Program-made: the position numbers and the translations under genes
Shown here: in pieces, positions 3,833-31,169 of the stretch
How positions within the stretch are numbered: position 1 is the stretch's first letter
How the letters are laid out: each line of letters opens with the position of its first letter
Notes under the pieces: generated by a model
Database searches by the model: none
Told to the model about the DNA's origin: nothing
Seen by the model: only the letters and a program-made list of their open reading frames with translations
NCBI GenBank assembly: GCA_035325525.1
Contig: DAOKZR010000004.1
Coordinates: forward strand, 250,807 to 282,806
DNA: 32,000 bases
Reading direction: 5' to 3'
From: Hyphomicrobium sp.
Lineage (GTDB): Bacteria > Pseudomonadota > Alphaproteobacteria > Rhizobiales > Hyphomicrobiaceae

Positions 3833-4023
3833 TTCAGTCCGTAGAGGCTACCGTCTCACATGATTTTCGGTCCCGCACGAGGCTGCTTGAAACGGTCTTG
3901 CGCAAAGGCCATCTCCCAACGGGCGGCGCCTAGCCTGCGCCGGGGAGAACGCGTAGGCTCCTGGCCCGGTCTTCCCCTTGAGTATCACTTGAATGCCGAT
4001 CCGCCGTGGGCCAGAATGACGAC

Positions 4024-4122
4024 TTTCCGAGGGGAGCCGGTGGACCGGCTGAGATCGCGGCAATTGGAGCCCGAACACCCTTAGAACCTGATCCGGGTCA
4101 TGCCGGCGATAGGGACGGAGCC
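4024..4122 (+). promoter_or_regulatory. TPP (THI-box) riboswitch aptamer
   Basis: ccgaGGGGAGCCGGTGGACCGGCTGAGATCGCGG...CCCGAACACCCTTAGAACCTGATCCGGGTCATGCCGGCGATAGGGACGGA contains the conserved CTGAGA, ACCCTT-GAACCTGATC-GG-T-ATGCC-GCG-AGGGA cores. It lies upstream of thiC. Confidence 0.9.
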
Positions 4123-4229
4123 TCCAGCATGTCCACGCATTACACACACGTTGGGATGATCGAACCGCCCGAGGCGCGCCGTGACGAGCTTCGGGGGCTC
4201 AAAATGACCCTTTGGCGGTTTATCGCTGA

Positions 4230-6356
<2,127 letters not shown>

Positions 6357-11472: not shown

Positions 11473-11802
11473 TTACTTGGGGACTTCGACGCTAACCTTG
11501 AACGAGGCGAAATAGGCCGCGAGATCCGCAATATCCTGGTCCGACAGCGCTCCGGCGACCACCGTCATCTGCGGGTTCTTGCGCTCGCCGCTCTTATAGT
11601 CGTGAAGAGCCTTGGCGACATACACTTGGTTCTGGCCGGCAAGATTGGGCGCTTCGGGAAGCGTAGCGATCCCATTTGCGCCATGACAAGCGGCGCACAT
11701 CGTCGCCTTCTTCTTGCCTGCGGCCGCGTCGCCCGCAGCATCTGCGGGCCCGGTGAAAGCGAATGCAGCGATCAAAGCCGGCAGGATAATCAGCGTGCGC
11801 AA
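11473..11802 (-). CDS. Mono-haem class I cytochrome c, exported
   Basis: ORF track, 109 aa. Signal peptide [22 protein letters not shown], haem site CAACHG, distal Met in NPQMTVV. Lies directly downstream of the PQQ dehydrogenase on the same strand. Confidence 0.9.
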
Positions 11803-11846
11803 GCGGGTCTCCTATGAATGTGTCCGCGAAACGCGGCCGATAGAGG

Positions 11847-11890
11847 CCGGGCCCGCGCCATATTCGGCACGGGCCCGGCAAGCGTTTTTT
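11847..11890. other. Intercistronic 9-bp GC hairpin (ccgggcccg/cgggcccgg) between the dehydrogenase and cytochrome c genes; the T6 run sits on the + strand side
   Basis: Arms are 11847..11855 and 11870..11878. TTTTTT at 11885..11890 abuts the dehydrogenase stop codon. On the coding (-) strand it is preceded by A6 and not followed by U. Confidence 0.5.
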
Positions 11891-11891
11891 C

Positions 11892-13154
11892 TCAGTTACC
11901 GTACGAGATGCGATAGATCGCGCCCACGAGGTCGTCGGAGACCAGCAGCGATCCGTCCGCCATCTGCGTCACGCTGACCGGACGACCAGCATATTCGCCG
12001 GTATCCAGCAGCCAACCCTCGGCGAAGACTTCCGTCGCCCCGTTGGTGCCGTCCTCATTGATCGCAGTGAACATCACACGCGCACCCACCGGGTTGGTCC
12101 GGTTCCATGAACCATGCTGCGCGGAGAAGATGCCGCCCCGATACTTTTTGGGGAACATCTTACCCGTGTAGAACGTCAAGCCGAGATCGGCGGCATGCGC
12201 GTCATACTCGTGCGCGGGAAATACGACATCTGCCGGCGGCTCGCTGTCCTTGTATTCATTGGTGCGCACCTTACCGCCGCCATACCAGGGGAACCCGAAG
12301 TTCTGTCCGGCAGCCGTGGCGTGATTGAGTTCGCCCGGCGGGATTTCGTCACCCATGCCGTCGACCTGGTTGTCGTTGAACCACAGCGTGCCGTCCTTCG
12401 GGTTGAAGTCCATGCCTACGCTGTTGCGGATGCCGGTGGCGAACACTTCGCGGTTCTTGCCGTCGCGATCCATACGGATGATGCCGCCGAGACCCCACTT
12501 GTTGTAGAGTTCCAGCTTCTCCGGCGCAGGTACGTTGAAGGGCTGCCCAAGCGTAATATAGAGTTTGTTGTCGGGCCCGATACGGCACACGCGAGCGGTG
12601 TGATTGTAGCTCTCTTCCTCCGGCGGAATGAGTTCGCCCTGCTTCACGACGTTGAAGGCGGCGACGTCAGGCCCCTCATAGAAGAACTCGGCGGCCGGAA
12701 ACAGCAGAACGCGGTTCTGCTCGACGATGTAAAGGAACCCGTCCTTCGAGAAGCACACGCCGTTGGGAATGGTGAAGTTGATCGACGGAGCGAATTCCTT
12801 GACCTCGTCGGCGACGCGGTCGCGGTTGCGATCGGTAACCGCATAGACCTTGTTCTTGCGCGTGCCTACAAACGTCACGACGCCTTGTGGGCCCACAGTC
12901 ATCTCGCGCGCATCCGGCACGACCGCATAGAGCGAGATCTTGAAGCCTTGCGGCAACTTGATCTTCTTCAGGATGTTGTTGATCGCCTTAACGTTGTCAC
13001 CCTTCTGGTCGATGGTCGGAATATCCATCGACGTGCCCGTGCTCTTGAACTCTCCAAGCTTTTCCAGATTGCCAGGCGGGTTGGTGGATTGCGCCAGCGC
13101 GGGGCTCGCTAGAACGGCCGCGGCGGCAACACTGATCATGAGACGCTTCAGCAT
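11892..13154 (-). CDS. PQQ-dependent sugar (glucose/sorbosone-type) dehydrogenase, periplasmic beta-propeller
   Basis: ORF track, 420 aa. Signal peptide MLKRLMISVAAAAVLASPALAQ. GSDH-family-like blocks: GGIIRMDRDGKN, FATGIRNSVGMDFNPKDGTLWFNDNQVDGMGDEIPPGELN, GQNFGFPWY, HAADLGLTFY, GSLLVSDD. Cytochrome c partner downstream and pqqAB in the same window. Confidence 0.85.
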   Translation of the reverse strand: MLKRLMISVAAAAVLASPALAQSTNPPGNLEKLGEFKSTGTSMDIPTIDQKGDNVKAINNILKKIKLPQGFKISLYAVVPDAREMTVGPQGVVTFVGTRKNKVYAVTDRNRDRVADEVKEFAPSINFTIPNGVCFSKDGFLYIVEQNRVLLFPAAEFFYEGPDVAAFNVVKQGELIPPEEESYNHTARVCRIGPDNKLYITLGQPFNVPAPEKLELYNKWGLGGIIRMDRDGKNREVFATGIRNSVGMDFNPKDGTLWFNDNQVDGMGDEIPPGELNHATAAGQNFGFPWYGGGKVRTNEYKDSEPPADVVFPAHEYDAHAADLGLTFYTGKMFPKKYRGGIFSAQHGSWNRTNPVGARVMFTAINEDGTNGATEVFAEGWLLDTGEYAGRPVSVTQMADGSLLVSDDLVGAIYRISYGN

Positions 13155-14624: not shown

Positions 14625-14663
14625 GCTAAACTTTTCAGGGCCGATTTATTGATCAATATCGGG

Positions 14664-14691
14664 ATGCCGGGTCACAGCCCGGCATTTTTTT
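14664..14691 (+). terminator. Rho-independent terminator after the bactofilin gene
   Basis: atgccggg-tcacag-cccggcat followed by TTTTTTT. Confidence 0.8.
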
Positions 14692-14703: not shown

Positions 14704-14800
14704 ACACGCTTCCTCGCAAGTATTATAAAGGTTCCCTCAGGGTTAGATTAACTGACAAGCTCAGTCCGCAATAAGAAACTGAGATTGGAGGGAGGAAACT

Positions 14801-16036
14801 ATGATTGCAGGCCGATTGCGCGTTGCGCAAAGCCGGAAGACGGCTCGTTGGCTGGGGCGGGTTGGCCCGATGGTATTCATCGCGGTCCTCGCACTGGTGT
14901 CCTTGAAGTTCACGCAGCAGCAGACGGTTGCGGCCGACCAACAATCCACGTTGAGCCCGCTCGAACAGCTCGGCGCCGAATTGTTCGTCGACGTGAACCT
15001 CTCACTTAATCGAAAGCAAGCGTGCGCGACCTGCCACGACCCCGACCATGCGTTTGCTGATCCGCGCACCTCGAAAGCCGGGCGCGCTGTTTCAACAGGC
15101 GACGACGGACAATCGATTGGCGACCGGAATGCGCCGACGCTGTCGTACGCCCACCTCACACCGCCTTTGACCAAGCGGCCCGACGGGACCCTGATGGGGG
15201 GATTTTTCTGGGATGGCCGCGCGGATACTCTCGAGGACCAGGCCAAGGGGCCCTTCTTGAACCCTGTCGAGATGGCAATGCCTGATGGTGCGTCCGTAGG
15301 AAAACGCATCTTGGAAAACGAAAAATACGTCGCCCGTTTCAAGGAGCTGTTCGGTCCAGACGTCGTGCTAGATCCCGAGCAGACGTTCGATGCGGCAGCC
15401 AAGGCTTTGGCCGCATACGAGCGCACGAGCGTGTTCTCGCCCTTCGATTCAAAGTACGATCGCTGGTTGCGCGGAGAGGCGACGCTCACCCCGCAGGAGG
15501 AATTCGGGCGGATCGTGTTCGCAACGTGGAACTGCGAGAACTGCCATAGGCCGAGGCGGCTGGGCGATCCTGGCACGGAGCTTTTTACCAACTTCGAGTA
15601 CCATAATATCGGGGTCCCGGCGAATGCACGTGTGCGCACGCTGAACGGCAAGGGCGAACGTTTTGTAGACGCAGGATTGCGCGATGGTGCGGCTGCGTCG
15701 GACACGACGCAGGCCGGCAAGTTCAAGGTTCCCACGCTGCGCAACATCGCCGTTACCGGTCCCTATATGCACAACGGCGTGTTCGAAAAGCTGAGAACTG
15801 CAATTGAGTTCTACAACAAATACACCAGCAGCCGCTCGACTTTGCAGATCAATCCTGAAACCGGAGCCGCCTGGGGCGAGCCGGAGGTCGCAGACAACAT
15901 CTCCAACGCCCAGCTCAAGACTGCGCTCTCGATGAACAACATGAGAGTTGTTGCGCTCGAAGCGTTCCTCAAAACGTTGACCGATAAGCGGTACGAGCAT
16001 CTGCTCACCGCCGAAAGTGGTGGAGAGCAGCAATGA
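14801..16036 (+). CDS. Di-haem cytochrome c peroxidase / MauG family protein, N-terminally membrane-anchored
   Basis: ORF track, 411 aa. GGAGGGAGGA SD. TM/signal anchor MVFIAVLALVSLKF. Two haem sites, CATCH and CENCH. CCP blocks: DRNAPTLSYA, FFWDGRADTLEDQAKGPFLNPVEM, FKVPTLRNIAVTGPYMHNG. Confidence 0.9.
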   Translation: MIAGRLRVAQSRKTARWLGRVGPMVFIAVLALVSLKFTQQQTVAADQQSTLSPLEQLGAELFVDVNLSLNRKQACATCHDPDHAFADPRTSKAGRAVSTGDDGQSIGDRNAPTLSYAHLTPPLTKRPDGTLMGGFFWDGRADTLEDQAKGPFLNPVEMAMPDGASVGKRILENEKYVARFKELFGPDVVLDPEQTFDAAAKALAAYERTSVFSPFDSKYDRWLRGEATLTPQEEFGRIVFATWNCENCHRPRRLGDPGTELFTNFEYHNIGVPANARVRTLNGKGERFVDAGLRDGAAASDTTQAGKFKVPTLRNIAVTGPYMHNGVFEKLRTAIEFYNKYTSSRSTLQINPETGAAWGEPEVADNISNAQLKTALSMNNMRVVALEAFLKTLTDKRYEHLLTAESGGEQQ

Positions 16037-18375
16037 GCGCCGTCGGGAGATTCTGGAACCGTTTTGTGATGAGCCGCCGGAACTGGTGGCTGCCCCTCGC
16101 GATCGTGCTCGGTATCGGCATCGGAAGCATGCTGTTCATGGGCACGCGTACCTACCAGGACGCGCCGCCAATTCCGAGCTTCGTCGATGAGCAAGGCGGG
16201 ACGGTGATCTCAGCCGACGCGGTGACCCGCGGACAGGTCGTCTTCCTTAAGAAGGGGCTGATGAACTACGGCAGCATGTTCGGGGACGGCGCCGGCCGCG
16301 GCCCCGACTTCACCGCCTACGCGCTGCATCAGGTGGCTCGCGCGATGCGAGACCACTATGTGTCCTCCGGTGGCGCGGACGCCGACGCGGCGCTCGCTGC
16401 CACGCAACGCGAGATCAAACGCAACCGCTATGATGAACAGGCCAACACGGTAACGATCAGCGCGGCGCAGGCCTACGGCGCGCGCGAACTCGAGCGGCGT
16501 GTGGCTGCGATGTTCCGTGGCGGGGACAGCGAGGCGTTCCAGCCGGCCGGCTATATCACCGACGAAGCCGAACTGCGCGACCTCTCGGCATTCTTCTTCT
16601 GGGGCGCCTGGGTGTGCGGCGTCGAGCGGCCCGGCAAGAGCTATAGCTACACGCACAACTGGCCCTACGACGAGATGGCGGGCAATCGGCCCAGCCCGCA
16701 GGTCATGCTGTGGAGCGTCCTCGCGTTGCTCGGATTGGTCGGCTCGCTCGGCACGGTGCTCTTCCTGTACGGCCGCTATTCGTCGATCGCGGGATGGCAA
16801 CCGGCATCTCGGCGTGCCGATGCACCGCCGGACGGCAGCGCGGCGGCCACCGTCATTCAAGTCGATACGATGCGGCCTACCATGCTGCAGCATGCCACCT
16901 ACCGGTACTTTGCTGCGGCGGCAGTTCTGTTCGTACTGCAGATCGTGGCGGGCGTGCTGACGGTTCACGACTTTCTGGGAATAACGCGGGTGGCGGGAGT
17001 TGATCTTGCGGAAATCCTGCCCCTCCCGGTCGTACGCGGCTGGCACCTGCAGCTGGCGTTGCTATGGATCAGCGCATGCTGGGTGGCTGCATCGATCTTT
17101 GCTATCTCGACCGCCGCTCCCCAGACCCCGGCCGGACAGCTGCGCCTGGTGGATGCCCTATTCTGGCTGTTCATCGTCACCGTCGTCGGCGGATTGGCCG
17201 GTATCGCACTCGGGGCGCATGGCCTGCTTGGCGACTGGTGGTACCTGTTGGGCGGCCAGGGCTGGGAGTTCGTCGAGCAGGGCAAGCTGTGGCAGGCATT
17301 GTTGTTCGCCGTGTTCGCGCTGTGGTGCGTGATCCTGGCGCGCGCGGTACGGCCGATCTGGCGGTCCGGCGACGCATGGATCCTGCCCAAATGGCTCCTC
17401 TATTGCGTCATGTGCGTGCTGGTGATGTTCGTCTGCGGCTTCGTCGCCACGCCTGAAACCAACTTCGTCGTGGCCGATTTCTGGCGTTGGGCCGTGATCC
17501 ACATGTGGGTCGAGGCGTTCTTCGAGGTCTTCACGACGGCCGTGCTTGCCTATTTCATGGTCCTCATGGGACTGGTGAGCCACGCTGCCGCCTCGCGCAT
17601 CGTCTATCTGGCCACGCTTCTGTTCCTCGGCTCGGGCCTGCTGGGTATCTCGCATAACTTCTATTGGAATGCGAAGCCCGTCGTGACGCTGGCTGTCGGC
17701 AGCGTGTTTTCCACCCTCCAAGTGGTGCCGCTGATCCTGCTCACCTTGGAAGCCTGGCAGTTCCGCAACGCACCCGAACGCGTGTCCGGCTCGTCCTCCG
17801 GCGCTGGCTTCGGCCAGTCAGAGGCGTTCCTGTTCCTGCTTGGCGTGAACTTCTGGAACTTCTTCGGCGCCGGCTTGTTCGGCTTCATGATCAATCTCCC
17901 GATTGTCAACTACTACGAACACGGCACGTATCTCACCGTGAACCACGGCCACGCGGCGTTGATGGGCGTCTATGGCAACCTGGCGATTGCGATGATGCTG
18001 TTCTGTGCGCGCTGTCTGATCGTACCGGAACGCTGGAACAGGGCGCTGCTGCGCCGTGTGTTCTGGTCGCTCAACGTCGGCCTGATTTTGATGGTGGCGC
18101 TCGATCTGCTACCCGTTGGCATCGCGCAACTGCTCGATGTGCTCGAAAACGGCTTGTGGCACGCACGTTCGCAAGTCTTCGTACAAGGAGACTTGTTCCA
18201 AACGCTCACCTGGGCGCGGATCGTTGGCGGCGCACTGTTCGTGCTGGGCGGCGTGCTTCCCCTGGCGTGGTTCATGGTGACGCGCGCAAGCTCGCTCAAG
18301 GCGCCCCTGCCTGAGCCGGCGGGCGCGGCCGAGCCAGGTTTGGCCAGACCCATGCCGGAGGTTGGCCGCGCCTGA
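16033..18375 (+). CDS. qNOR-like haem-copper oxidase (nitric oxide reductase large-subunit family) with non-canonical, NO-dismutase-type active-site residues
   Basis: ORF track, 780 aa. The ATG overlaps the CCP stop (ATGA). N-terminal TM plus a haem-less periplasmic domain (no CxxCH), then a polytopic core with RGWHLQLALLWI, ADFWRWAVIHMWVEAFFEVF, GISHNFYWNAKP, GSVFSTLQVVPL, LTVNHGHAALMGVYGN. Confidence 0.9.
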   Translation: MSAVGRFWNRFVMSRRNWWLPLAIVLGIGIGSMLFMGTRTYQDAPPIPSFVDEQGGTVISADAVTRGQVVFLKKGLMNYGSMFGDGAGRGPDFTAYALHQVARAMRDHYVSSGGADADAALAATQREIKRNRYDEQANTVTISAAQAYGARELERRVAAMFRGGDSEAFQPAGYITDEAELRDLSAFFFWGAWVCGVERPGKSYSYTHNWPYDEMAGNRPSPQVMLWSVLALLGLVGSLGTVLFLYGRYSSIAGWQPASRRADAPPDGSAAATVIQVDTMRPTMLQHATYRYFAAAAVLFVLQIVAGVLTVHDFLGITRVAGVDLAEILPLPVVRGWHLQLALLWISACWVAASIFAISTAAPQTPAGQLRLVDALFWLFIVTVVGGLAGIALGAHGLLGDWWYLLGGQGWEFVEQGKLWQALLFAVFALWCVILARAVRPIWRSGDAWILPKWLLYCVMCVLVMFVCGFVATPETNFVVADFWRWAVIHMWVEAFFEVFTTAVLAYFMVLMGLVSHAAASRIVYLATLLFLGSGLLGISHNFYWNAKPVVTLAVGSVFSTLQVVPLILLTLEAWQFRNAPERVSGSSSGAGFGQSEAFLFLLGVNFWNFFGAGLFGFMINLPIVNYYEHGTYLTVNHGHAALMGVYGNLAIAMMLFCARCLIVPERWNRALLRRVFWSLNVGLILMVALDLLPVGIAQLLDVLENGLWHARSQVFVQGDLFQTLTWARIVGGALFVLGGVLPLAWFMVTRASSLKAPLPEPAGAAEPGLARPMPEVGRA

Positions 18376-18393
18376 GGCGGCTCACACGGGAAG

Positions 18394-18430
18394 AAAAGAG
18401 CCGTTTGCGCCACGCGCAAACGGCTCTTTT
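18394..18430 (+). terminator. Strong bidirectional-type terminator: 17-bp perfect stem aaaagagccgtttgcgc-cac-gcgcaaacggctctttt
   Basis: Read directly. A-run on the 5' side, U-run on the 3' side, 19 nt after the stop at 18375. The hairpin sequence is related to the one after thiC (6371..6406). Confidence 0.85.
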
Positions 18431-18510
18431 CATTTGTTCTGTCATTCATTTTTCTGTCGCGCTTCCTGGTGGAGAACCGGCTTTCCACTTTTCCGGGGCG
18501 CGCGCTCATT
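18431..18510 (+). repeat. Dispersed intergenic repeat, locus 3
   Basis: catttgttctgtc...ctgtcgcgcttcctggtggagaaccggctttccacttttccgg matches the core at loci 1, 2 and 4. Confidence 0.65.
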
Positions 18511-18672
18511 CGTCTTGCCGCGCTTGCTAGTGGCCTCGCTCCGGCAAATCCGCCGCTTATTGAGGCAGGCGGATCATGCTGCAACGTGAGCCAAGAACCT
18601 ACGGGCCACATGCGCACGCCGCGCTGATTGCGAGGCGTTGACTCTGGAACGCGCGTCCGCGCGGTGTTGACG

Positions 18673-18987
18673 CTAGAATGCGCGTCCGCGCGATCTTGGG
18701 CTTTCGTTCATGCAGTGCTCAGAAACGCGGATGTCGGCGCCGACGAGCCGGCAGACCTCGCGCTTGTAATTCGGGTTGTTGCGGATGCGCGCCGCCGAGG
18801 CCCGCATCCCGTACTCGCGCGCCACCTCGGCGAGCAGCTCGTCCTGGCAGTAGGGCGTCGAGATGAGGTTGCCGCCGACCTTCTGGAAGCCGTTATGACA
18901 TATGATGCGCGCCTGCGCGGGACTGGCGAGCGCGCTCAGGCCGGCCAACACGGCTGCCGCGCCAAAGCTCTTGCTGGGCTGGAACAT
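18673..18987 (-). CDS. Small exported Cys-rich protein (104 aa), unknown function
   Basis: This is the 3' part of the 18673..20028 track ORF. ATG 18987 is preceded by GAGGAG. Signal peptide MFQPSKSFGAAAVLAGLSALASPAQA. Four Cys in the mature part (RIICHNG...TPYCQDE...REVCRLV...SEHCMNE). Confidence 0.6.
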   Translation of the reverse strand: MFQPSKSFGAAAVLAGLSALASPAQARIICHNGFQKVGGNLISTPYCQDELLAEVAREYGMRASAARIRNNPNYKREVCRLVGADIRVSEHCMNESPRSRGRAF

Positions 18988-19161
18988 CGATCGTCTCCTC
19001 GTACTGGCGCCTTCCACGGCCCGGGCGCCGACCCGGCGGGGTCGGGTATCTTCAGACCGGACCACAGTAATACACGATCTCCAAGGGCGGGTCCCTCGCC
19101 TAAAGCTGATCGCAAGGCTATAGAACGCCAGCCACCGACAACACTCCGGCAGGGTGCATAT

Positions 19162-20133
19162 ATGATCACGGTCTACGACATCGCGGGCAAATGCCTGGTG
19201 CGGAAAGATGGCAGCACGCCGATTACCGACAGTACCGTGTGGATCGATCTGCTCAATCCCGATGGCGAAGAGGAGCAGGCCGTCGAGCAGGCTGCGGGCG
19301 TAGACGTTCCCACGCGCGAGGAGATGCGCGAGATCGAAGTTTCCAACCGCTTCTATACGGAGGGCGATGCACACTACATGACAGCGTTGCTGATGCAGGC
19401 GGTCAATCAGAACGCACCCGTCCTGACGAACGTCACCTTCATCCTGACCGGCAACCGTCTCATCACCGTGCGCTACAGCGATCCGCGCTCGTTCTCGATC
19501 TTCGCCGACAAGGCCTGCCGCGGCGATCCGGGATGCGCCAACGGGCTCCAAGTTCTGACCGGGCTGCTTGAGATCCTGGTGCAGCGCCAAGCCGATCATA
19601 TCGAGCGCATCCAGGACGAGGTCGAAAGCGTCGCGACCCAGATTTTCGGACAGCAGGCCGATGGCAGGTCGCGCGGCCGCCGCCTCGACGTCCTTCTCAG
19701 AACAGTCGGTAAGACGGGTCACTTGACGTCGCGCGCGCTGGAGTCCGCAGTCTCGCTCCACCGGACCCTGCATTACTTCGCCGAAGCCGCCAAAGCCAAA
19801 GGGGCCGGGGAGATGCTTATGGCGCGGGTGGATAGCGCCACGCGCGACATGCGTTCGCTGGCCGACCATCTCAAGGCCCTGTCGGGGCGCATCGCGTTCC
19901 TTCTCGATGCGACGCTGGGGATGATTTCCAACGAACAGAACCAGATCATCAAGCTCTTCTCGGTGATGGCCGTAATGCTGATGCCGCCGACGCTGGTCGC
20001 CTCCGTCTACGGCATGAACTTCAGGCACATGCCCGAGCTGGACTGGCCGTTCGGATATCCCATGGCCTTGGTGTTAATGTTCGTCTCCGCGCTCGTGCCG
20101 TTCCTTTATTTCCGCCGCAAGGGCTGGCTGTAG
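19162..20133 (+). CDS. corA: Magnesium/cobalt transporter CorA
   Basis: This is the 3' part of the 18628..20133 track ORF, started at ATG 19162 (MITVYD...), giving 323 aa. The C-terminal region has two TM helices with the YGMNF (GMN) signature. Confidence 0.93.
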   Translation: MITVYDIAGKCLVRKDGSTPITDSTVWIDLLNPDGEEEQAVEQAAGVDVPTREEMREIEVSNRFYTEGDAHYMTALLMQAVNQNAPVLTNVTFILTGNRLITVRYSDPRSFSIFADKACRGDPGCANGLQVLTGLLEILVQRQADHIERIQDEVESVATQIFGQQADGRSRGRRLDVLLRTVGKTGHLTSRALESAVSLHRTLHYFAEAAKAKGAGEMLMARVDSATRDMRSLADHLKALSGRIAFLLDATLGMISNEQNQIIKLFSVMAVMLMPPTLVASVYGMNFRHMPELDWPFGYPMALVLMFVSALVPFLYFRRKGWL

Positions 20134-20575: not shown

Positions 20576-21136
20576 ATGCGGATCTTGACAAAAGCCCTGC
20601 TCGCTGTCGTAGCCGGCGCATTTGTTTCCGCCTCCGGCGCCAACGCTGCCAATATCTGGAATTGCACCGCGCCGGCTAACGTGTGCGCAAAGAGACTGGC
20701 CAAGGCTGCCAAAGCGAAATCCGTCAAGCACCACCATCATGCAAAGACGGCCAAGTCCAAGCATCACCACGCCAAGGCCTGGCATAAGAAGTCGCGTAAA
20801 GGGGCACACAAGCCCCACAAGAGGAACAAGGCTGCCAGCTACGGCGGCGGCCAGTCCGGCATCGCTTCGTGGTACGGCGGCAAGTTCCATGGCCGCAAGA
20901 CGGCTAGCGGCGAACGCTACAATCAGAATGCCCTGACCGCGGCCCATCGCTCGCTGCCCTTCGGAACGCGCGTGCGCGTCACCAACACGACCAACGGCAA
21001 CGCCGTCATCGTTCGCATCAACGATCGCGGCCCCTTCGTGGGCGGGCGTGTCATCGACCTGTCGCGTGCGGCCGCCAACTCGATCGGCATCAACGGCCTT
21101 GGCCGCGTGAAGCTGGCGGTACTCAGCGGCGGCTGA
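20576..21136 (+). CDS. RlpA-like lipoprotein / DPBB (double-psi beta-barrel) protein, paralogue 1, with a His/Lys-rich linker
   Basis: ORF track, 186 aa. Signal peptide [24 protein letters not shown], linker [39 protein letters not shown] block [73 protein letters not shown]. Confidence 0.88.
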
Positions 21137-21709: not shown

Positions 21710-22240
21710 ATGCGTAAGACACTCGCGATGGCGGCCGTGGCGCTTGCAGCCCTTACCACCACCACGATCTCTGCCAGCGCCTGGGAATGCCAGGGTCCGG
21801 CCTACGCTTGTAACGGCGCGAAATCCAACAAGGTTTCCTACAAGCCCTCGAAAAAGTCCGTCCATAGGGCTTCCCACAAGAGTTCCAAGTCGGCCAAAAC
21901 CGCTCACAAGAGCTTCAAGAAGAGCGGCCACTATGCCGCCAACGGCTCAGGCGGCGGCTACTCGGGAAAGGCGTCCTACTACTGGCAGCCCCAGCGCGTC
22001 GCTTCGGGCGGCTGGTTCAACCCGAACGCCATGACGGCTGCGCACAAGACGCTGCCGTTTGGCACCAAGGTCCGCGTCACCAACCGCAACAACGGCCGGT
22101 CGGTCGTCGTCACCATCAACGACCGCGGACCTTATGTTGCCGGCCGCGTCATCGATCTGTCGCGTGCGGCCGCCCAGGCCATCTCAATGACGGGGGCAGG
22201 CGTCGCGCCGGTGACGGTCGCCGTGCTCGGTAGGGACTGA
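21710..22240 (+). CDS. RlpA-like DPBB protein, paralogue 2, with a Lys/Ser/His-rich linker
   Basis: ORF track, 176 aa. Signal peptide MRKTLAMAAVALAALTTTTISASA. DPBB block [70 protein letters not shown]. The RBS region (GAGGAGTTCA) is shared with paralogue 1. Confidence 0.88.
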   Translation: MRKTLAMAAVALAALTTTTISASAWECQGPAYACNGAKSNKVSYKPSKKSVHRASHKSSKSAKTAHKSFKKSGHYAANGSGGGYSGKASYYWQPQRVASGGWFNPNAMTAAHKTLPFGTKVRVTNRNNGRSVVVTINDRGPYVAGRVIDLSRAAAQAISMTGAGVAPVTVAVLGRD

Positions 22241-22438: not shown

Positions 22439-23011
22439 TTGTACACTTCGACACACTGCGGCGCCGTTGCAGTGCCGCGCGTGCGCCGCGTGCGGCCACA
22501 AATCGCGGGATTTGTCCTCGCTGCCTCATGCAGCGGCGCGCTCATCGCCAGCCCGTCGCAGGCACTCGCGGAAAGCCAGCCCGAGGCTGCCGCTTCGGCC
22601 TGGCGCATCACCGCAAGAGTGGCGCGTCCGGACCCGGTCCCAACCTATGCCATGAACGTGGGCGTGGCATTGCCTGCCGGCTTGACCTCGCGGCCGGGCG
22701 CCGGCTCGAGCCTGACGGGCAAAGGTCACACACTCGAAGGCATCGCATCCTATTATTGGCAGGGCCAGATGACGGCGACCGGCGAGCGCTTCGATCCGAG
22801 CCAACTCACGGCCGCCCACAAGACGCTCCCCTTCGGCACGCGCGTGCGCGTGACGCGGGTCGACACGGGCTCCAGCGTGATCGTGCGGATCAATGACCGG
22901 GGCCCCTTCAAGCCTGGGCGGGTCATCGACCTGTCAAAGCGCGCCGCAGAGGAAATCGGCATGACCGGAAAGGGTCTTTCCCAGGTCAAGCTTGAAGTGC
23001 TCGGCAAATGA
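22439..23011 (+). CDS. RlpA-like DPBB protein, paralogue 3 (start uncertain, TTG)
   Basis: ORF track, 190 aa. GGAG lies 4 nt upstream of TTG 22439. Signal-like [35 protein letters not shown] block [70 protein letters not shown]. Confidence 0.85.
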
Positions 23012-26848: not shown

Positions 26849-28645
26849 TCATAATGAGGCGAGTTTGACGTCCGCGTGGAACTGATTACTGACCGTCGTC
26901 GGGTTTACATAACCCGCACGGATGCAGAAATCGCCGAAGTGCTCGCCATCCTTGCGGTCCTTGGCATAGGCTTTGAAGATGGGGTCCAGAAGCGCCAGGA
27001 TCCGCTCCTCGTTCACGTCTTGCGCGTAGAGCTTCGACAGGCGCGAACCGTCGAACGCCGCGCCCAGGTACATGTTGTAGAGACCTGGATTGCGGCCCGC
27101 AAAGCCGATCTCGGCGAGATAGGGCCGTGCGCATCCGTTAGGGCAGCCCGTCATGCGTATGACGATATCCTCTTGGCGCAAGCCGGCCTTGTCGAGGCTG
27201 TCTTCCAACTTGGTGATGAGGCTCGGCAGGTAGCGCTCGCTTTCGGCCAGGGCGAGGCCGCAGGTTGGCAGCGCCACGCACGCCATGGCATTGGCCCGCA
27301 GCCGCGAGGAAACCTCGAGCGAAACGCCATTGGCTTTCAGAATGCCTTCGATCTTCGCCTTCGACTTGGCGGCGACCTTCGCCATCGTCACGTTCTGATT
27401 GGCCGTGGCGATGAACTCGCAAATGCCCAGATCCGCGATCTCGCGCAGCGCCTTCTTGAGCGCGCGCCCTTCGACGTCCTTGATGCGTCCGTTCTCGATG
27501 AACAAGGTAAGGTTCCAGTTCTTGTCCTCGCCCTGCCGCCATCCAAGCACGTCGCTCGTGCCCTCGAACTTGAAGGGGCGAGGTTCACCGAGCTTGAAGC
27601 CGCAGCGATTCTCGACCTCGGTACGGAAGTTCTCCAACCCCTTGTCTTCGATAGTGTATTTCAGGCGCGCGCGGGCGCGGTTCTCGCGATTGCCCCAGTC
27701 ACGCTGCGTGGTCATCACGCATTCGGCAACCTTTATGACCTGATCGGGCGTGCAAAACGCCATGAGGTCACCGGTGCGCGGGAAGGTATTGGTGTCACCG
27801 TGCGTCATGCCCATGCCTCCGCCCACCGTCACGTTCCAGCCGGCGATCTCGCCCTTCTCGATGATGGCGATGAAGCCGAGGTCATGGGCAAAAACGTCCA
27901 CGTCGTTGCTCGGCGGGACCGCAAACACGATCTTGAACTTGCGCGGCAGGTAATGGACTCCGTAGAAGGGCTCCTCGTTCTTCTTGGCCGACCGCGAAGC
28001 CTCCTCGACCTTCTCCCCATCGAGCCAGATCTCGTGATAGGCGCCGGTCTTGGGCAGAAGGTGTGCGCTGACGGCAAGGCCCAGCTCGTAGGCTTGCTTG
28101 TTCGCCTTTGAAAGATAGGGATTGGACACCGTCATCACGTTGCGGTTGACGTCGCCGCACGCCGCACGGGTGTCGAGCGCGGCCTTGTTGATGGCCTGCA
28201 TCGTGCGCTTCAGGTTCGACTTAATGACGCCATGATACTGGAACGTCTCGCGCGTCGTCAGGCGCATCGAGTTGTTCGCGTAGGTGGTGGCGATGCCGTC
28301 GAGCGCGATCCATTGCTTGGCCGTGAGCACCCCGCCGGGAATGCGCAAGCGCAACATGAAGATGTAGGCCTTCTCGAGCTTCTTTTTTGCGCGTTCGGCG
28401 CGAACGTCGCGATCATCCTGCAGGTAGGATCCGTGGAACTTGAGGATCTGGGTATCCTCCTCCACGATGCTTCCGGTGGATTGAACCTTGATCTCTTCGG
28501 CCAGCGTGCCGCGAAGCTGGCGGCTGGCTTCCTTGACGAACTCGTTCCTTGAGCGCTTTTCGGTCATGTCTTGACGTGTCCTGAGGTCGTTTGCCCCTTC
28601 GCTCGGAAGGGTCGCGGGATGGGCGGAACAAGTTTGTCCGCTCAT
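26849..28645 (-). CDS. cysI: Assimilatory sulfite reductase (NADPH) haemoprotein beta-component
   Basis: ORF track, 598 aa. LRGTLAEE...ILKFHGSYLQDDRD, MLRLRIPGG, TTRETFQYHG, siroheme/4Fe-4S Cys motifs ACGDVNRN, CVALPTCGLA and TGCPNGCARP. ATG 28645 has a GGGGAGA SD. ATG 28567 is an alternative start. Confidence 0.93.
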   Translation of the reverse strand: MSGQTCSAHPATLPSEGANDLRTRQDMTEKRSRNEFVKEASRQLRGTLAEEIKVQSTGSIVEEDTQILKFHGSYLQDDRDVRAERAKKKLEKAYIFMLRLRIPGGVLTAKQWIALDGIATTYANNSMRLTTRETFQYHGVIKSNLKRTMQAINKAALDTRAACGDVNRNVMTVSNPYLSKANKQAYELGLAVSAHLLPKTGAYHEIWLDGEKVEEASRSAKKNEEPFYGVHYLPRKFKIVFAVPPSNDVDVFAHDLGFIAIIEKGEIAGWNVTVGGGMGMTHGDTNTFPRTGDLMAFCTPDQVIKVAECVMTTQRDWGNRENRARARLKYTIEDKGLENFRTEVENRCGFKLGEPRPFKFEGTSDVLGWRQGEDKNWNLTLFIENGRIKDVEGRALKKALREIADLGICEFIATANQNVTMAKVAAKSKAKIEGILKANGVSLEVSSRLRANAMACVALPTCGLALAESERYLPSLITKLEDSLDKAGLRQEDIVIRMTGCPNGCARPYLAEIGFAGRNPGLYNMYLGAAFDGSRLSKLYAQDVNEERILALLDPIFKAYAKDRKDGEHFGDFCIRAGYVNPTTVSNQFHADVKLASL

Positions 28646-28678
28646 CCAGGTCTCCCCCAGCGGGGGACGTGATGGCCT

Positions 28679-30466: not shown

Positions 30467-31169
30467 GGATCTCTCCAATGGGCAGCGCACACGCCATCAC
30501 GCGAAAACCGCCCCCTCGTTCTTGCGCGCCTCGACGCACAGCTGTCCGGGCAGCAGAGAATTTGCCGCCCCGTCAAATGGCTCAAGGCGCAACACCCAGT
30601 CGCTGACAGGGAATTATTTTTCAAATATCACGAACATTGGACCCTATCAATAGTATGTAAATCCAATTATAGGCACTCGTAGGTACAATATTTCTTCTTA
30701 TTGCCGCTTTCGGAGACGGCAGCGCCCTTTCGGGTCCCGACCGTACCGGCGACGCCAGCCGAATACCTTAGCCGGCGCAGCCTCCTCTATCGCGCAAGGC
30801 TGGCGCCTGACGGCCCTTCCGGGACATCGTCGCCGGGTCATTGCAACGTTATCGGATCATCCGATGTCTCATTGGTCGCGCCGGCTTTGCGTGAAGCCTT
30901 CCGCCCGTGATCCGCGCAAAGTGTAATGATACAAAATTACATAGAGATCGCACATACTTACACACGTAGACGTGAAGCGCCTTGAGTTGCCCGGCGGGTC
31001 CCTTTCGTGATCTAAAGATTTCGAGACGGATGGATCTTGACTTCTCGAGATCGATCCGCAGAGTGGGCCGGCACACGGAGAATGTGTCTGCCCCAGGGTC
31101 GATCCCCGACCAGCTTGAGTCTGGGTTTGGGTCTGAGACGGCAGCTTTTTTGAAATTGGAGGAAACCAC

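What the first reader, a model, noticed from the sequence alone, without database searches (positions are those of the whole stretch)
16033..18375. qNOR-like haem-copper oxidase carrying nitric-oxide-dismutase-type active-site substitutions (FeB His to Asn, helix-VIII Glu to Gln, quinol-site Glu absent)
Seen in sequence: the protein has qNOR architecture (N-terminal TM helix, a ~200-aa periplasmic domain with no CxxCH anywhere, then a polytopic core). Haem ligands are present (RGWH-LQL; NHGH-AALMG). Helix VI is canonical: H490-MWV-E494-AFF-E498 (nt 17500..17526). Helix VII reads S-H541-N542-FYW (nt 17653..17658), where NorB/qNOR proteins have two consecutive His. Exactly 21 residues later, the conserved SALE(V/P) motif reads STL-Q563-VVPL (nt 17719..17721). 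The spacings (+4, +8, +51, +21) reproduce, as I remember them, P. aeruginosa NorB H207/E211/E215/H258-H259/E280 and Geobacillus qNOR H508/E512/H559-H560/E581. N542 and Q563 therefore occupy the third FeB-ligand His and the essential helix-VIII Glu. Around the position expected for the Geobacillus quinol site (H328/E332), the sequence is TV-H312-DFLG, with no Glu at +4. Established knowledge (from memory; verify): this combination of His to Asn, Glu to Gln and a degraded quinol site is what led to the unusual qNOR paralogues of Methylomirabilis oxyfera and gammaproteobacterium HdN1 being proposed as NO dismutases (2 NO to N2 + O2). That activity has not been proven with a purified enzyme. Inference: this is a NOD-type or closely related non-canonical NOR. 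It sits in a PQQ-using, apparently aerobic alphaproteobacterial context and has a dedicated CCP partner, which is not the classical NOD setting.
Basis: partly seen in the sequence, partly recalled or inferred. Interest (0 to 1): 0.85.

Follow-up and report, generated by a model that had tools for sequence, protein, structure and literature searches.

The report
NOD-type nitric-oxide enzyme beside MauG
This gene encodes a relative of bacterial nitric-oxide reductase with the active-site changes of the proposed oxygen-making "NO dismutases". It belongs to a branch of that family that is already recognised but has never been purified, and its tight pairing with a MauG-type haem enzyme suggests a concrete way to test what these enzymes do.

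Summary
ORF 16033..18375 encodes an intact 780-aa qNOR-fold protein. The third FeB histidine is Asn (N542) and the helix-VIII Glu is Gln (Q563). The quinol site has lost Glu332, Asp746 and Phe336 (Geobacillus numbering) but keeps His328. These changes are fixed in every close homologue and the gene is under purifying selection.

In a bootstrapped tree it falls in the His-to-Asn/Glu-to-Gln (NOD) superclade. It is in the deep sister branch (published as "Planctomycetia-type Nod"), about 44% identical to the branch I infer to be the M. oxyfera/HdN1 one. More than 500 species genomes carry this branch, so it is a new member of a known, biochemically untested kind.

The "CCP partner" is really a MauG-type enzyme: 61% identical to Paracoccus MauG, with Tyr294, Trp93 and Trp199 kept. 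It is translationally coupled to nod in a two-gene unit. Related nod genes in Hyphomicrobium, Sulfuritalea and a gammaproteobacterium sit beside methylamine-dehydrogenase genes. A 2026 paper reports two peroxidases plus mauABED next to nod in Burkholderiales.

The product (N2+O2 or N2O) remains unproven. Because MauG needs O2 or H2O2, the pairing offers a test. Interest is moderate.

The parts
14661..14688 (+). Terminator-like hairpin followed by a T-run, after the bactofilin gene. It marks the upstream boundary of the mauG-nod unit.
   Evidence: 12-bp stem; sequence
14787..14795 (+). Shine-Dalgarno-like GGAGGGAGG, 5 nt before the ATG of the MauG-type gene
   Evidence: read directly; supports the 411-aa start rather than the 388-aa JGI gene call
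14801..16036 (+). MauG-type di-haem enzyme, 411 aa. It has an N-terminal hydrophobic signal or anchor at aa 15-39. The CxxCH motifs are at nt 15023-15037 and 15533-15547. Equivalents of MauG residues: Trp93 at 15209-15211, Gln103 at 15239-15241, Pro107 at 15251-15253, Glu113 at 15269-15271, Trp199 at 15527-15529 and Tyr294 at 15812-15814.
   Evidence: Pfam CCP_MauG; phmmer against PDB gives P. denitrificans MauG, E 5e-136; 61% identity over 349 aa with all listed residues conserved; Tyr294 is diagnostic of MauG versus CCP (PMC7567364)
16033..16036 (+). ATGA overlap of the mauG stop codon and the nod start codon (translational coupling). A GGTGGAGAG Shine-Dalgarno-like sequence lies just upstream.
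   Evidence: the same 4-nt overlap occurs in Hyphomicrobium loci L003 and L005 and metagenome loci L083 and L084
16033..18375 (+). NOD-type qNOR homologue, 780 aa. TM1 is at aa 17-38, the haem-less cytochrome-c-like periplasmic domain at aa 50-212 (nt 16180-16668), and the COX1 core at aa 289-734 (nt 16897-18234).
16966..16980 (+). Remnant of the quinol site. H312 corresponds to Geobacillus His328 and is retained. G316 replaces Glu332.
17044..17046 (+). H338, the haem b axial ligand (RGWHLQL)
   Evidence: invariant in 119/119 homologues; aligned to KGYHLQL of 3AYF
17500..17526 (+). Helix VI, canonical: H490 (FeB ligand), E494 (Glu512) and E498 (Glu516)
17653..17658 (+). H541-N542. The second FeB His is kept and the third FeB His (His560) is replaced by Asn.
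17719..17721 (+). Q563, replacing Glu581 of Geobacillus qNOR (Glu559 in AxqNOR, Glu280 in P. aeruginosa cNOR)
17944..17952 (+). H638 and H640, the haem b3 and haem b axial ligands (NHGHAALMG)
18229..18231 (+). G733, replacing the quinol-binding Asp746 of Geobacillus qNOR
   Evidence: Gly in 34/34 of the query branch and 15/15 of the inferred classical NOD branch; Asp in 20/20 canonical qNORs
18393..18431 (+). Strong terminator-like hairpin (18-bp stem) 18 nt after the nod stop codon. It marks the downstream boundary of the bicistronic unit.

Best explanation
**Shown.** The gene encodes an intact, selected member of the NOD branch of the qNOR family. It has the full qNOR fold. Both haem-ligand sets and the Ca-binding Glu are present. 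The FeB site is built from His490, His541, Glu494 and Asn542, where qNORs have a third His. Gln563 replaces the proton-relay Glu. There is no haem c, and only His328 survives of the quinol site.

It belongs to the deep sister branch of the branch I infer to be the M. oxyfera/HdN1 one. Its organism appears Hyphomicrobium-like. It is co-transcribed and translationally coupled with a MauG-type di-haem enzyme in a self-contained two-gene unit.

**Inferred.** NO binds at the haem b3/FeB centre and is converted without quinol-derived electrons. I commit to NO dismutation (2 NO to N2 + O2) as the most likely chemistry.

The oxidant made in this way is then used by the co-encoded MauG-type enzyme. MauG needs O2 or H2O2 for the six-electron oxidation that builds the TTQ cofactor of amine dehydrogenases. 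The pair would therefore let TTQ enzymes mature under denitrifying anoxia.

**How likely.**
- family and branch assignment: about 0.9
- O2-forming dismutation: about 0.4 (this is the confidence given for the explanation)
- O2 hand-off to MauG: about 0.2-0.25
For: **Active site and fold.**

**Fixation and selection.** His-Asn and Gln occur in 119/119 close homologues and in 34/34 query-branch plus 15/15 inferred classical NOD sequences, against His-His and Glu in 20/20 canonical qNORs. dN/dS is 0.13-0.17.

**Phylogeny.** The superclade, the inferred classical branch and the query branch each have 100/100 NJ bootstrap support.

**Loss of electron and proton entry.**
- Glu332 to Gly, Asp746 to Gly, Phe336 to Val
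- the Ca-ligand Tyr (Ax78) is lost
- no CxxCH
- the lost Glu is the proton donor of cNOR (PMC6713497). Dismutation needs neither protons nor electrons.

**Published definition and physiology.** Ettwig 2012 defines NOD by these changes and gives the physiological basis for O2 production.

**The partner is a true MauG type.** E 5e-136 and 61% identity to PdMauG, with Tyr294, Trp93, Trp199, Gln103, Pro107 and Glu113 kept. MauG chemistry is driven by H2O2 (PMC6405878).

**Operon.** ATGA overlap, an SD sequence, and flanking terminator-like hairpins.

**Synteny.**
- A di-haem CCP/MauG-family gene abuts nod in 25 of 29 loci with nod at least 63% identical to the window, and in 0 of 40 below that.
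- The flanks of the Hyphomicrobium-type pairs differ between genomes.
- MADH genes lie beside nod in Hyphomicrobium L003 (mauG-nod-ORF-mauB-E-D-A), in gammaproteobacterial L043 and in five Sulfuritalea loci.
- The same was reported independently for Burkholiderales MAGs (PMC13386854).
- Three loci of the inferred classical NOD branch have no such neighbours.
Against: - No NOD has been purified, and opposing physiological results exist (PMC13386854). In oxygen-deficient zones nod abundance tracks modelled N2O production (Elbon et al.).
- This branch is only 37-46% identical to the branch I infer to be the one where O2 production was inferred.
- It keeps His328 and the cytoplasmic proton-path residues Glu494, Glu498, Asn609 and Glu573. 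A pure dismutase would not obviously need them.
- The window itself has no mauA/B/D/E anywhere in 32 kb, so the TTQ link is by analogy to relatives.
- In the Burkholderiaceae loci fetched here, no mau genes lie within 6 kb.
- Di-haem c proteins could equally be electron donors.
- I could not obtain the M. oxyfera or HdN1 sequences themselves. The "classical" branch was identified indirectly.
Confidence: 0.4

Rival explanations
1. It is an N2O-forming NO reductase that has swapped quinol for periplasmic c-type haem donors. The MauG/CCP-type di-haem proteins, fed by amine dehydrogenase via cytochrome c or amicyanin, dock on the haem-less periplasmic domain and pass electrons to haem b. NO would then be the electron sink for amine oxidation.
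For: - Di-haem genes are the only conserved neighbours.
- In Betaproteobacteria the distal di-haem protein lacks the peroxidatic Gln and Glu, so it looks like a pure electron carrier.
- The proton-path residues Glu494, Glu498, Asn609 and Glu573 are retained.
- Residues specific to the CCP-linked sub-branch cluster in the periplasmic domain (R106, R151, R155, G75, N78, G114), as expected for a docking surface.
- MADH and aldehyde dehydrogenase genes are adjacent in relatives.
- nod abundance in oxygen-deficient zones correlates with N2O production.
Against: - The third FeB His and the Glu used for proton delivery are replaced in every member.
- No haem c sits in the periplasmic domain, so electron transfer to haem b would be long-range.
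- The window partner keeps the complete MauG oxidising machinery (Tyr294, Trp199), not features of an electron shuttle.
- Most of the branch (0 of 40 loci below 63% identity) has no di-haem neighbour at all.
Confidence: 0.3
2. It is an NO-scavenging or NO-tolerance device, or carries out other chemistry, with no respiratory or O2-supplying role. The adjacency to mauG reflects co-regulation or chance within a mobile two-gene cassette.
For: - NsrR/Rrf2-type and OxyR-type regulators next to nod genes in other taxa suggest a nitrosative-stress role.
- The flanking genes in the window are housekeeping genes with no denitrification genes in 32 kb.
- No FNR/NnrR-type box stands out upstream.
Against: - The stop/start overlap with mauG is conserved in four further loci whose flanks differ.
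- Independent lineages pair nod with different di-haem peroxidase-family genes and with mau genes. This is hard to explain without a functional link.
Confidence: 0.12
3. The MauG-type enzyme acts on the NOD protein itself, installing an oxidative post-translational modification (a Trp/Tyr-derived cofactor or cross-link) that replaces the lost quinol or haem-c electron entry.
For: - MauG and MbnH are protein-modifying di-haem enzymes.
- The surface hole-hopping residue Trp199 is kept.
- The two genes are translationally coupled.
- The nod-linked MauG lineage is distinct from mau-cluster MauGs. It is 53-54% identical to them, whereas they are 70-78% identical to PdMauG.
Against: - No Trp, Tyr, Cys or His is specifically conserved in the CCP-linked sub-branch. 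The conserved periplasmic aromatic residues checked against 3AYF (FFFW..AW, Y.NNWPY) are also present in that ordinary qNOR.
- In L003 the same mauG-nod pair sits directly upstream of mauB-E-D-A, so MADH is the simpler substrate.
- The betaproteobacterial partners lack Trp199, and the proximal one lacks Tyr294.
Confidence: 0.06
4. It is an ordinary quinol-dependent NO reductase, or an inactive relic, and the substitutions are functionally neutral or degenerative.
For: Overall qNOR fold (TM-score 0.85-0.88); His328 is retained.
Against: - 21 of 21 canonical qNORs have His-His, Glu and Asp746, whereas this clade never does.
- The clade is monophyletic with 100/100 support.
- dN/dS is 0.13-0.17 and the changes are invariant across more than 500 genomes, which excludes decay.
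Confidence: 0.04

Closest known systems
"Planctomycetia-type Nod" (OTU I of Fuchsman 2017; Elbon et al., bioRxiv 10.1101/2023.11.21.568154) and the nod genes reported in Sediminibacterium and other Bacteroidota
   Same: It is the same monophyletic branch, with 100/100 support. That branch contains Scalindua, Planctomycetota, Sediminibacterium, Hydrotalea and Obscuribacterales sequences. All share the HNFYWN and STLQVVPL motifs, retain His328 and have Gly at position 746. The branch is about 40-46% identical to Alpha-type and other classical Nod.
   Different: The window protein lies in a terminal proteobacterial sub-branch (Hyphomicrobium plus Burkholderiaceae and Rhodocyclaceae). That sub-branch, unlike the Planctomycetia and Bacteroidota members, has di-haem CCP/MauG genes fused into the operon: 25 of 29 loci against 0 of 40.
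Burkholderiales nod loci with two cytochrome c peroxidases and mauABED (PMC13386854, mSystems 2026)
   Same: It is the same NOD sub-branch (63-80% identical). The arrangement is also the same, with CCP-family di-haem genes immediately upstream and overlapping nod, and there is the same association with TTQ amine-dehydrogenase genes.
   Different: The window has one gene of true MauG type (Tyr294, Trp199) where those loci have two CCP/MbnH-like genes about 30% identical to it. No mauABED lies within the 32-kb window. The paper did not connect MauG's oxidant requirement with NOD.
Putative NO dismutases of Ca. Methylomirabilis oxyfera (DAMO_2434/2437) and gammaproteobacterium HdN1 (Ettwig et al. 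2012, PMC3413370)
   Same: It has the defining changes: one FeB His to Asn, the catalytic Glu to Gln, and loss of the quinol-site Glu and Asp. The haems and the other His ligands are kept and there is no haem c. It is sister within one superclade.
   Different: It is in a different sub-clade, 37-46% identical. The inferred classical branch has Thr, Ile or Met at position 328, Arg near 332, the motifs HNFYWI and STLQVLPL, and Lys where this branch has Tyr647. Its neighbours are LuxR-type regulators, cytochrome b561 and ferredoxin rather than CCP or MauG. The M. oxyfera and HdN1 sequences themselves were not retrieved.
Canonical qNOR (Geobacillus 3AYF; Alcaligenes 8BGW/6QQ5; Neisseria 6L3H)
   Same: Full-length fold with TM-score 0.82-0.88. 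It shares the N-terminal TM helix, the haem-less cytochrome-c-like domain, the haem b and b3 ligands, His508, His559, Glu512, Glu516, Asn622 and the Ca-binding Glu.
   Different: His560 is Asn, Glu581 is Gln, Glu332 is Gly, Asp746 is Gly, Phe336 is Val and the Ca-ligand Tyr is lost. Identity is 33% on average. It lies outside all canonical representatives in the tree.
Paracoccus denitrificans MauG (PDB 3L4M/4Y5R), compared with the upstream gene
   Same: 61% identity over 349 aa. It keeps both CxxCH motifs, His35, His205, Tyr294, Trp93, Trp199, Gln103, Pro107 and Glu113.
   Different: In the window it is not in a mauFBEDACJGMN cluster but is coupled to nod. It forms a lineage separate from mau-cluster MauGs (53-54% identity to them). 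Only the two closest of 80 metagenomic relatives are followed by nod. Some of the others lie next to mauJ or mauM/N-like genes, or in imelysin clusters.

Membership tests
Canonical quinol-dependent NOR (qNOR) | HCO core with an N-terminal TM helix and a haem-less cytochrome-c-like domain; His ligands of haem b and haem b3 | tested here: met
Canonical quinol-dependent NOR (qNOR) | FeB bound by three His (His508, His559, His560) plus Glu512 | tested here: not met
   His560 is Asn542. It is invariant in the clade, whereas canonical qNORs have His in 20/20.
Canonical quinol-dependent NOR (qNOR) | Conserved Glu581 (Pa cNOR Glu280) next to the binuclear centre | tested here: not met
   Gln563
Canonical quinol-dependent NOR (qNOR) | Quinol site: His328, Glu332, Phe336, Asp746 | tested here: not met
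   His is kept (H312), but Glu is Gly316, Phe is Val320 and Asp is Gly733.
NOD family in the broad sense (His-to-Asn / Glu-to-Gln qNOR-derived clade) | One FeB His replaced by Asn | tested here: met
   N542; definition from PMC3413370 and PMC10286720
NOD family in the broad sense (His-to-Asn / Glu-to-Gln qNOR-derived clade) | Catalytic Glu replaced by Gln | tested here: met
   Q563
NOD family in the broad sense (His-to-Asn / Glu-to-Gln qNOR-derived clade) | No proper quinol-binding site and no haem c | tested here: met
   Three of the four site residues are lost and there is no CxxCH. Caveat: His328 is retained, unlike in the inferred classical branch.
NOD family in the broad sense (His-to-Asn / Glu-to-Gln qNOR-derived clade) | Falls in a clade separate from qNOR | tested here: met
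   NJ tree of 69 sequences and 716 columns, 100/100 bootstraps. Limits: no ML tree, no cNOR outgroup, and no M. oxyfera or HdN1 sequences.
NOD family in the broad sense (His-to-Asn / Glu-to-Gln qNOR-derived clade) | Converts 2 NO to N2 + O2 | not testable with these tools
   No NOD has been purified. There is no NOD structure among the PDB matches.
Classical NOD sub-clade (NC10 / HdN1 / Alpha-type) | Placement within that sub-clade, with its motifs (Thr or another non-His residue at 328, Arg at about 332, HNFYWI) | tested here: not met
   It is in the sister branch (100/100), 37-46% identical, with H312, G316 and HNFYWN. The sub-clade was identified indirectly: members named "nitric oxide dismutase" by JGI, a Magnetovibrio member, the published Thr/Arg signature, and LuxR/cytochrome b561 neighbours.
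MauG (TTQ-biosynthesis di-haem enzyme), for the upstream gene | Two c-haems with His-Tyr ligation of the six-coordinate haem (Tyr294), Trp93 between the haems, and surface Trp199 | tested here: met
   diagnostic value of Tyr294 from PMC7567364
MauG (TTQ-biosynthesis di-haem enzyme), for the upstream gene | Encoded with its substrate genes mauA and mauB | tested here: not met
   There are no mauA/B/D/E hits in the 32-kb window. The feature is met in the closest relative, L003/L084.
MauG (TTQ-biosynthesis di-haem enzyme), for the upstream gene | NCBIfam equivalog TIGR03791 scores above its cut-off | tested here: inconclusive
   The score is 92.9 bits against a cut-off of 443.85. The authentic P. 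denitrificans MauG scores only 95.7, so the model does not cover this MauG type.
cNOR (NorCB) | Separate NorC haem-c subunit and a short NorB | tested here: not met
   It is a fused qNOR-type protein of 780 aa. cNOR NorB matches only the core, with TMq 0.50.

The most novel reading that the evidence does not exclude
NOD and MauG form an "intra-aerobic cofactor-maturation" module. NOD dismutates denitrification-derived NO to N2 + O2 in or at the membrane. The co-translated periplasmic MauG-type di-haem enzyme uses that oxidant to carry out the O2/H2O2-dependent six-electron oxidation that builds TTQ in amine dehydrogenases. In Betaproteobacteria a CCP/MauG-like pair would play the same part. 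Methylamine and other primary amines could then be oxidised during strictly anoxic, nitrate-driven growth. This would be a second physiological use of NO-derived oxygen, beside methane and alkane mono-oxygenation. It would also provide a genetic readout for the disputed O2-forming activity.
Probability: 0.2. Interest if true: 0.85.

Novelty: new member of a known kind. Interest (0 to 1): 0.5.

Why it matters
Whether NOD enzymes really make O2 from NO has been open since 2010-2012, and no enzyme has been purified. The answer affects N2O budgets and the idea of "dark oxygen".

This locus does not settle that question. It does show, in minimal form, a two-gene terminator-bounded unit that couples a NOD-type enzyme to an enzyme whose only known chemistry requires O2 or H2O2. 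Relatives place the same pair next to methylamine-dehydrogenase genes.

That gives a simple prediction. Anaerobic TTQ maturation and amine growth should depend on nod and should be rescued by traces of O2 or H2O2. The alternative is also testable: MADH-derived electrons are dumped on NO through the di-haem proteins.

The locus also shows that the proteobacterial nod sub-branch moves between Alpha- and Betaproteobacteria.

Tried and rejected
**1. Retrieving the M. oxyfera and HdN1 NOD sequences for the tree.** All three homologue searches and two cluster look-ups returned no organism-named NC10 or HdN1 protein. The classical branch therefore had to be identified indirectly.

**2. NCBIfam on the NOD.** It matched no family at E 1e-5 or better.

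**3. A generic CCP reading of the partner.** Rejected because of its similarity to PdMauG and the conserved Tyr294. The low TIGR03791 score is uninformative because real MauG scores equally low.

**4. A MauG target residue in NOD.** I looked for Trp, Tyr, Cys or His residues specific to the CCP-linked sub-branch and found none. Only 14 discriminating positions exist, several of them Arg or Gly in the periplasmic domain.

**5. Other conserved neighbours of the CCP-nod module.** None is consistent. Aldehyde dehydrogenase appears in 5 loci and class-III aminotransferase in 4.

**6. FNR/NnrR-type box or sigma-70 promoter upstream of mauG.** Nothing convincing.

**7. Compositional evidence for a recent island.** None.

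**8. Conserved flanks among Hyphomicrobium-type loci.** None are shared with the window.

**9. Pseudogene or sequencing-error reading.** Rejected.

**10. Literature link between MauG and oxygenic denitrification, or between Hyphomicrobium and NOD.** Both searches found no paper. A first search on "MauG" was swamped by author names.

Full report
**1. The observation**

The ORF 16033..18375 (+) is open from ATG to TGA and encodes 780 aa.
- H312 (16966-16968) and G316 at +4
- H490/E494/E498 (17500-17526)
- H541-N542 (17653-17658)
- Q563 (17719-17721)
- no CxxCH anywhere

phmmer against all PDB chains returns Geobacillus stearothermophilus qNOR 3AYF as best hit (E 1.1e-145). Alcaligenes and Neisseria qNORs follow, then cNOR NorB.

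I rebuilt the 3AYF sequence from that alignment. Its numbering reproduces the literature residues exactly: His328, Glu332, Phe336, His508, Glu512, His559, His560, Glu581 and Asp746. The register is therefore not in doubt. SHNFYW lies under GHHYYY, STLQVVPL under SALEVIPL, and TVHDFLG under LAHYYTE.

PMC6713497 equates Geobacillus Glu581 with AxqNOR Glu559 and with P. aeruginosa cNOR Glu280, the proton donor to the FeB glutamate. My alignment puts Q563 on that column.

Pfam finds the haem-less NorB cytochrome-c-like domain (aa 50-212) and COX1 (aa 289-734). Hydropathy gives TM1 at aa 17-38. An AlphaFold2 model (pLDDT 81, pTM 0.85) superposes on 3AYF with TM-score 0.85/0.88. No NOD structure exists among the PDB matches.

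**2. Not chance, error or decay**

An identical protein is already in public collections. It comes from JGI metagenome 3300009868, contig Ga0130016_10000020 (347.5 kb), and from a Logan assembly.

- In 119 full-length homologues of at least 56% identity, H541, N542, Q563 and the haem ligand H338 are invariant. H312 is present in 106.
- In the library clustered at 50% identity, only two full-length representatives carry His-Asn/Gln. These are P0121 (56% to the query) and P0122 (41%). The other 19 aligned full-length representatives and both PDB qNORs carry His-His/Glu and Asp746.
- dN/dS against Hyphomicrobium and Lautropia orthologues is 0.13-0.17.

**3. Where it sits in the family**

A scan of one genome per GTDB species with the peptide HNFYWNA found at least 523 genomes encoding relatives.
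- Nearest are two Hyphomicrobium MAGs (82%).
- Next come Burkholderiaceae, Lautropia and Limnobacter (72-80%), then Sulfuritalea and Rhodocyclaceae (67-71%).
- Further out are Gammaproteobacteria, Acidobacteria, Planctomycetota, Scalindua, Obscuribacterales and Bacteroidota, including Sediminibacterium and Hydrotalea flava (52-63%).

Relatives of P0122 form a second large His-Asn/Gln group. It has Thr, Ile or Met at position 328, Arg near 332, and the motifs HNFYWI and STLQVLPL. I take this group to be the classical NC10/HdN1/Alpha-type NOD branch, on four indirect grounds:
- It contains proteins that JGI names "nitric oxide dismutase".
- It contains a Magnetovibrio sequence. Elbon et al. list a Magnetovibrio Nod at 75% identity to Alpha-type Nod, with HdN1 and Methylomirabilota at 66%.
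- It carries the Thr/Arg signature published for the NC10 and aquifer clusters.
- One member has the LuxR, cytochrome b561 and ferredoxin neighbours described for Gamma-type nod.

I did not obtain the M. oxyfera sequence itself.

A neighbour-joining tree (69 sequences, 716 columns, Kimura distances, 100 bootstraps) gives 100% support to three groupings: the His-Asn/Gln superclade, the inferred classical branch, and the query's branch. The window protein groups with Hyphomicrobium, next to Burkholderiaceae.

The query is 37-46% identical to the inferred classical NODs and 33% on average to canonical qNORs. This matches the published "Planctomycetia-type Nod", which is about 40% identical to Alpha-type Nod. 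Sediminibacterium nod genes, which are in this branch, are also treated as nod in the literature.

**4. Residue comparison**

Derived states shared by both NOD branches against canonical qNOR:

| Geobacillus/Ax residue | NOD branches |
|---|---|
| His560 | Asn |
| Glu581 | Gln |
| Asp746 | Gly |
| Glu332 | lost |
| Ca-ligand Tyr (Ax78) | lost |

Retained in both branches: His508, His559, Glu512, Glu516, Asn622, Ca-binding Glu429, Gly91 and all haem ligands.

Specific to the query branch: His328 is kept in 32 of 34 sequences. Tyr647 stands where the inferred classical branch has Lys, and Glu573 where it has Asp.

**5. The partner gene**

The gene at 14801..16036 matches Pfam CCP_MauG. Against PDB its best hits are all Paracoccus denitrificans MauG entries (E 5e-136). 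BthA, MbnH and true CCPs are far behind.

Identity to PdMauG is 61% over 349 aa. With numbering anchored on Trp93, the CxxCH histidines fall on His35 and His205. Tyr294, Trp199, Gln103, Pro107 and Glu113 are all conserved. [quoted passage not shown]

The NCBIfam MauG equivalog scores only 92.9 bits. It scores authentic PdMauG at 95.7, so this says nothing.

The gene has a strong SD sequence (GGAGGGAGG). Its stop codon overlaps the nod start (ATGA). Terminator-like hairpins lie at 14661-14688 and 18393-18431, bounding a bicistronic unit.

**6. Synteny from the NOD side**

Among genome loci with at least 1.3 kb upstream sequence, a CCP/MauG-family gene ends at the nod start in 25 of 29 loci where nod is at least 63% identical to the window. 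It does so in 0 of 40 below that.

- Hyphomicrobium loci have one MauG-type gene, 66-71% identical to the window's.
- Betaproteobacteria have two tandem di-haem genes, about 30% identical to the window's, closest to CCPs and MbnH.
  - The proximal one keeps the peroxidatic Gln and Glu but has Phe at the Tyr294 column.
  - The distal one lacks Gln and Glu and has Tyr or His at that column.

No other neighbour family is consistent. The window's flanks (bactofilin, GSDH-like dehydrogenase, cytochrome c, CorA) are not shared with the other Hyphomicrobium-type loci. Three loci of the inferred classical NOD branch have no CCP neighbour.

**7. Synteny from the MauG side**

Of the 80 best metagenomic relatives, only the two closest (71-73%) are followed by nod. 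Among the neighbours of 27 of the others, MauJ occurs in 5 and MauM/N-type ferredoxins in 6, indicating genuine mau clusters. Imelysin or DHOR genes occur in several more.

Mau-cluster MauGs are 70-78% identical to PdMauG but only 53-54% identical to the window protein. The nod-linked genes therefore form a separate MauG lineage.

**8. Link to amine dehydrogenase**

I took MauB, MauE, MauD and MauA from a canonical metagenomic cluster (L092) and searched all fetched DNA with tblastn.

- Hyphomicrobium L003 (identical to metagenome L084) reads: mauG-type, nod, a 288-aa ORF, MADH heavy chain (Pfam E 7e-156), MauE, a thioredoxin-like MauD, then MADH light chain.
- Gammaproteobacterial L043 has mauB-E-D-A divergently abutting nod.
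- Five Sulfuritalea loci have a MADH-heavy-chain-like gene divergent from aldehyde dehydrogenase, CCP, CCP and nod.
- Lautropia has aldehyde dehydrogenase, CCP, CCP and nod, with a class-III aminotransferase downstream on the opposite strand.

The window has no mau structural gene in 32 kb.

[quoted passage not shown] It also states that no O2-consuming system was evident near nod and that NOD has not been isolated. Searches of the held literature found no paper linking MauG with oxygenic denitrification, or Hyphomicrobium with NOD.

**9. Interpretation**

Shown:
- an intact NOD-family enzyme of the deep sister branch
- a true MauG-type partner in a two-gene operon
- recurrent association of this nod sub-branch with di-haem peroxidase-family and TTQ amine-dehydrogenase genes

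Inferred: the chemistry.

Arguments for dismutation:
- The quinol site and any haem c are lost.
- An FeB ligand and the proton-relay Glu are replaced in every member.
- Physiological evidence exists for M. oxyfera and HdN1.
- The partner's only known chemistry needs H2O2 or O2 (plus established MauG biochemistry recalled from memory).

Arguments against:
- There is no biochemical proof, and contrary field correlations exist.
- The branch is only about 44% identical to the inferred classical branch.
- His328 and the cytoplasmic proton-path residues are retained.
- Di-haem cytochromes are equally plausible electron donors. In that case NOD would be an NO reductase serving as the sink for amine-derived electrons.

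My estimates are about 0.4 for dismutation, 0.3 for a c-haem-fed reductase, and the remainder for detoxification, other chemistry or self-modification.

**10. Novelty and score**

The protein is a new member of a known kind. The family, this branch and even the peroxidase/mau neighbourhood in Burkholderiales are published.

Not found in the literature searched:
- the recognition that the Hyphomicrobium partner is a bona fide MauG
- the minimal mauG-nod cassette
- the mauG-nod-mauBEDA arrangement
- the idea that MauG's oxidant requirement makes the pair a test of O2 production

Interest is 0.5.

Noticed in passing
window 4020-4132 (+), upstream of thiC at 4380-6356: TPP riboswitch (Rfam RF00059, 65.8 bits, E 5.5e-11) in front of a ThiC gene. 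This is the ordinary arrangement.
   Followed up: yes
window 20576-21136, 21710-22240, 22439-23011 (+): Three tandem paralogues with a C-terminal RlpA-like DPBB_1 domain and His/Lys-rich N-terminal regions. They are 47-61% identical to each other.
   Followed up: no
window 11473-13154 (-): A GSDH-family (soluble PQQ-type) dehydrogenase, Pfam E 6e-15, followed by a mono-haem cytochrome c.
   Followed up: partly
window 18628-20133 (+): The CorA ORF is open from a TTG at 18628 (501 aa), but the Pfam CorA domain covers only aa 202-497 and JGI called a 323-aa product. The long N-terminal extension is probably not translated.
   Followed up: partly
NCBIfam TIGR03791 (TTQ_mauG equivalog): The biochemically characterised P. 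denitrificans MauG scores 95.7 bits against a cut-off of 443.85. Paracoccus-type MauGs are therefore invisible to this model and are annotated as generic peroxidases.
   Followed up: yes
nod in the window versus L004 (Lautropia) and L003/L005 (Hyphomicrobium): Synonymous divergence of nod is lower to the betaproteobacterial Lautropia copy (dS 0.72) than to the Hyphomicrobium copies (0.81-0.94). mauG dS between the Hyphomicrobium-type copies is 1.5-1.7. This suggests nod moved between Alpha- and Betaproteobacteria and was joined to different di-haem genes.
   Followed up: partly
L030 3723-5915 (+): In one Burkholderiaceae MAG the two CCP-like genes upstream of nod appear fused into a single ORF with four CxxCH motifs.
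   Followed up: no
L102 5001-8155: A MauG relative (53% identical to the window's) lies about 0.75 kb upstream of a COX1-family gene that is only 28% identical to NOD. This may be another di-haem/HCO pairing.
   Followed up: no
metagenome loci L085-L121: Several Paracoccus-type MauG relatives sit beside imelysin (Peptidase_M75), DHOR and DUF1513 genes, which form an iron-uptake-like cluster, rather than beside mau genes.
   Followed up: no
L004 1148-3349 and 8359-10152; L021 1400-3298: An aldehyde dehydrogenase upstream and a class-III aminotransferase downstream recur around the betaproteobacterial CCP-CCP-nod units. This fits an amine-catabolic island.
   Followed up: partly
window 26849-30490 (-): Sulfite/nitrite reductase haemoprotein and flavoprotein genes (cysI/cysJ-like). 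They look assimilatory and are not part of the nod unit.
   Followed up: no
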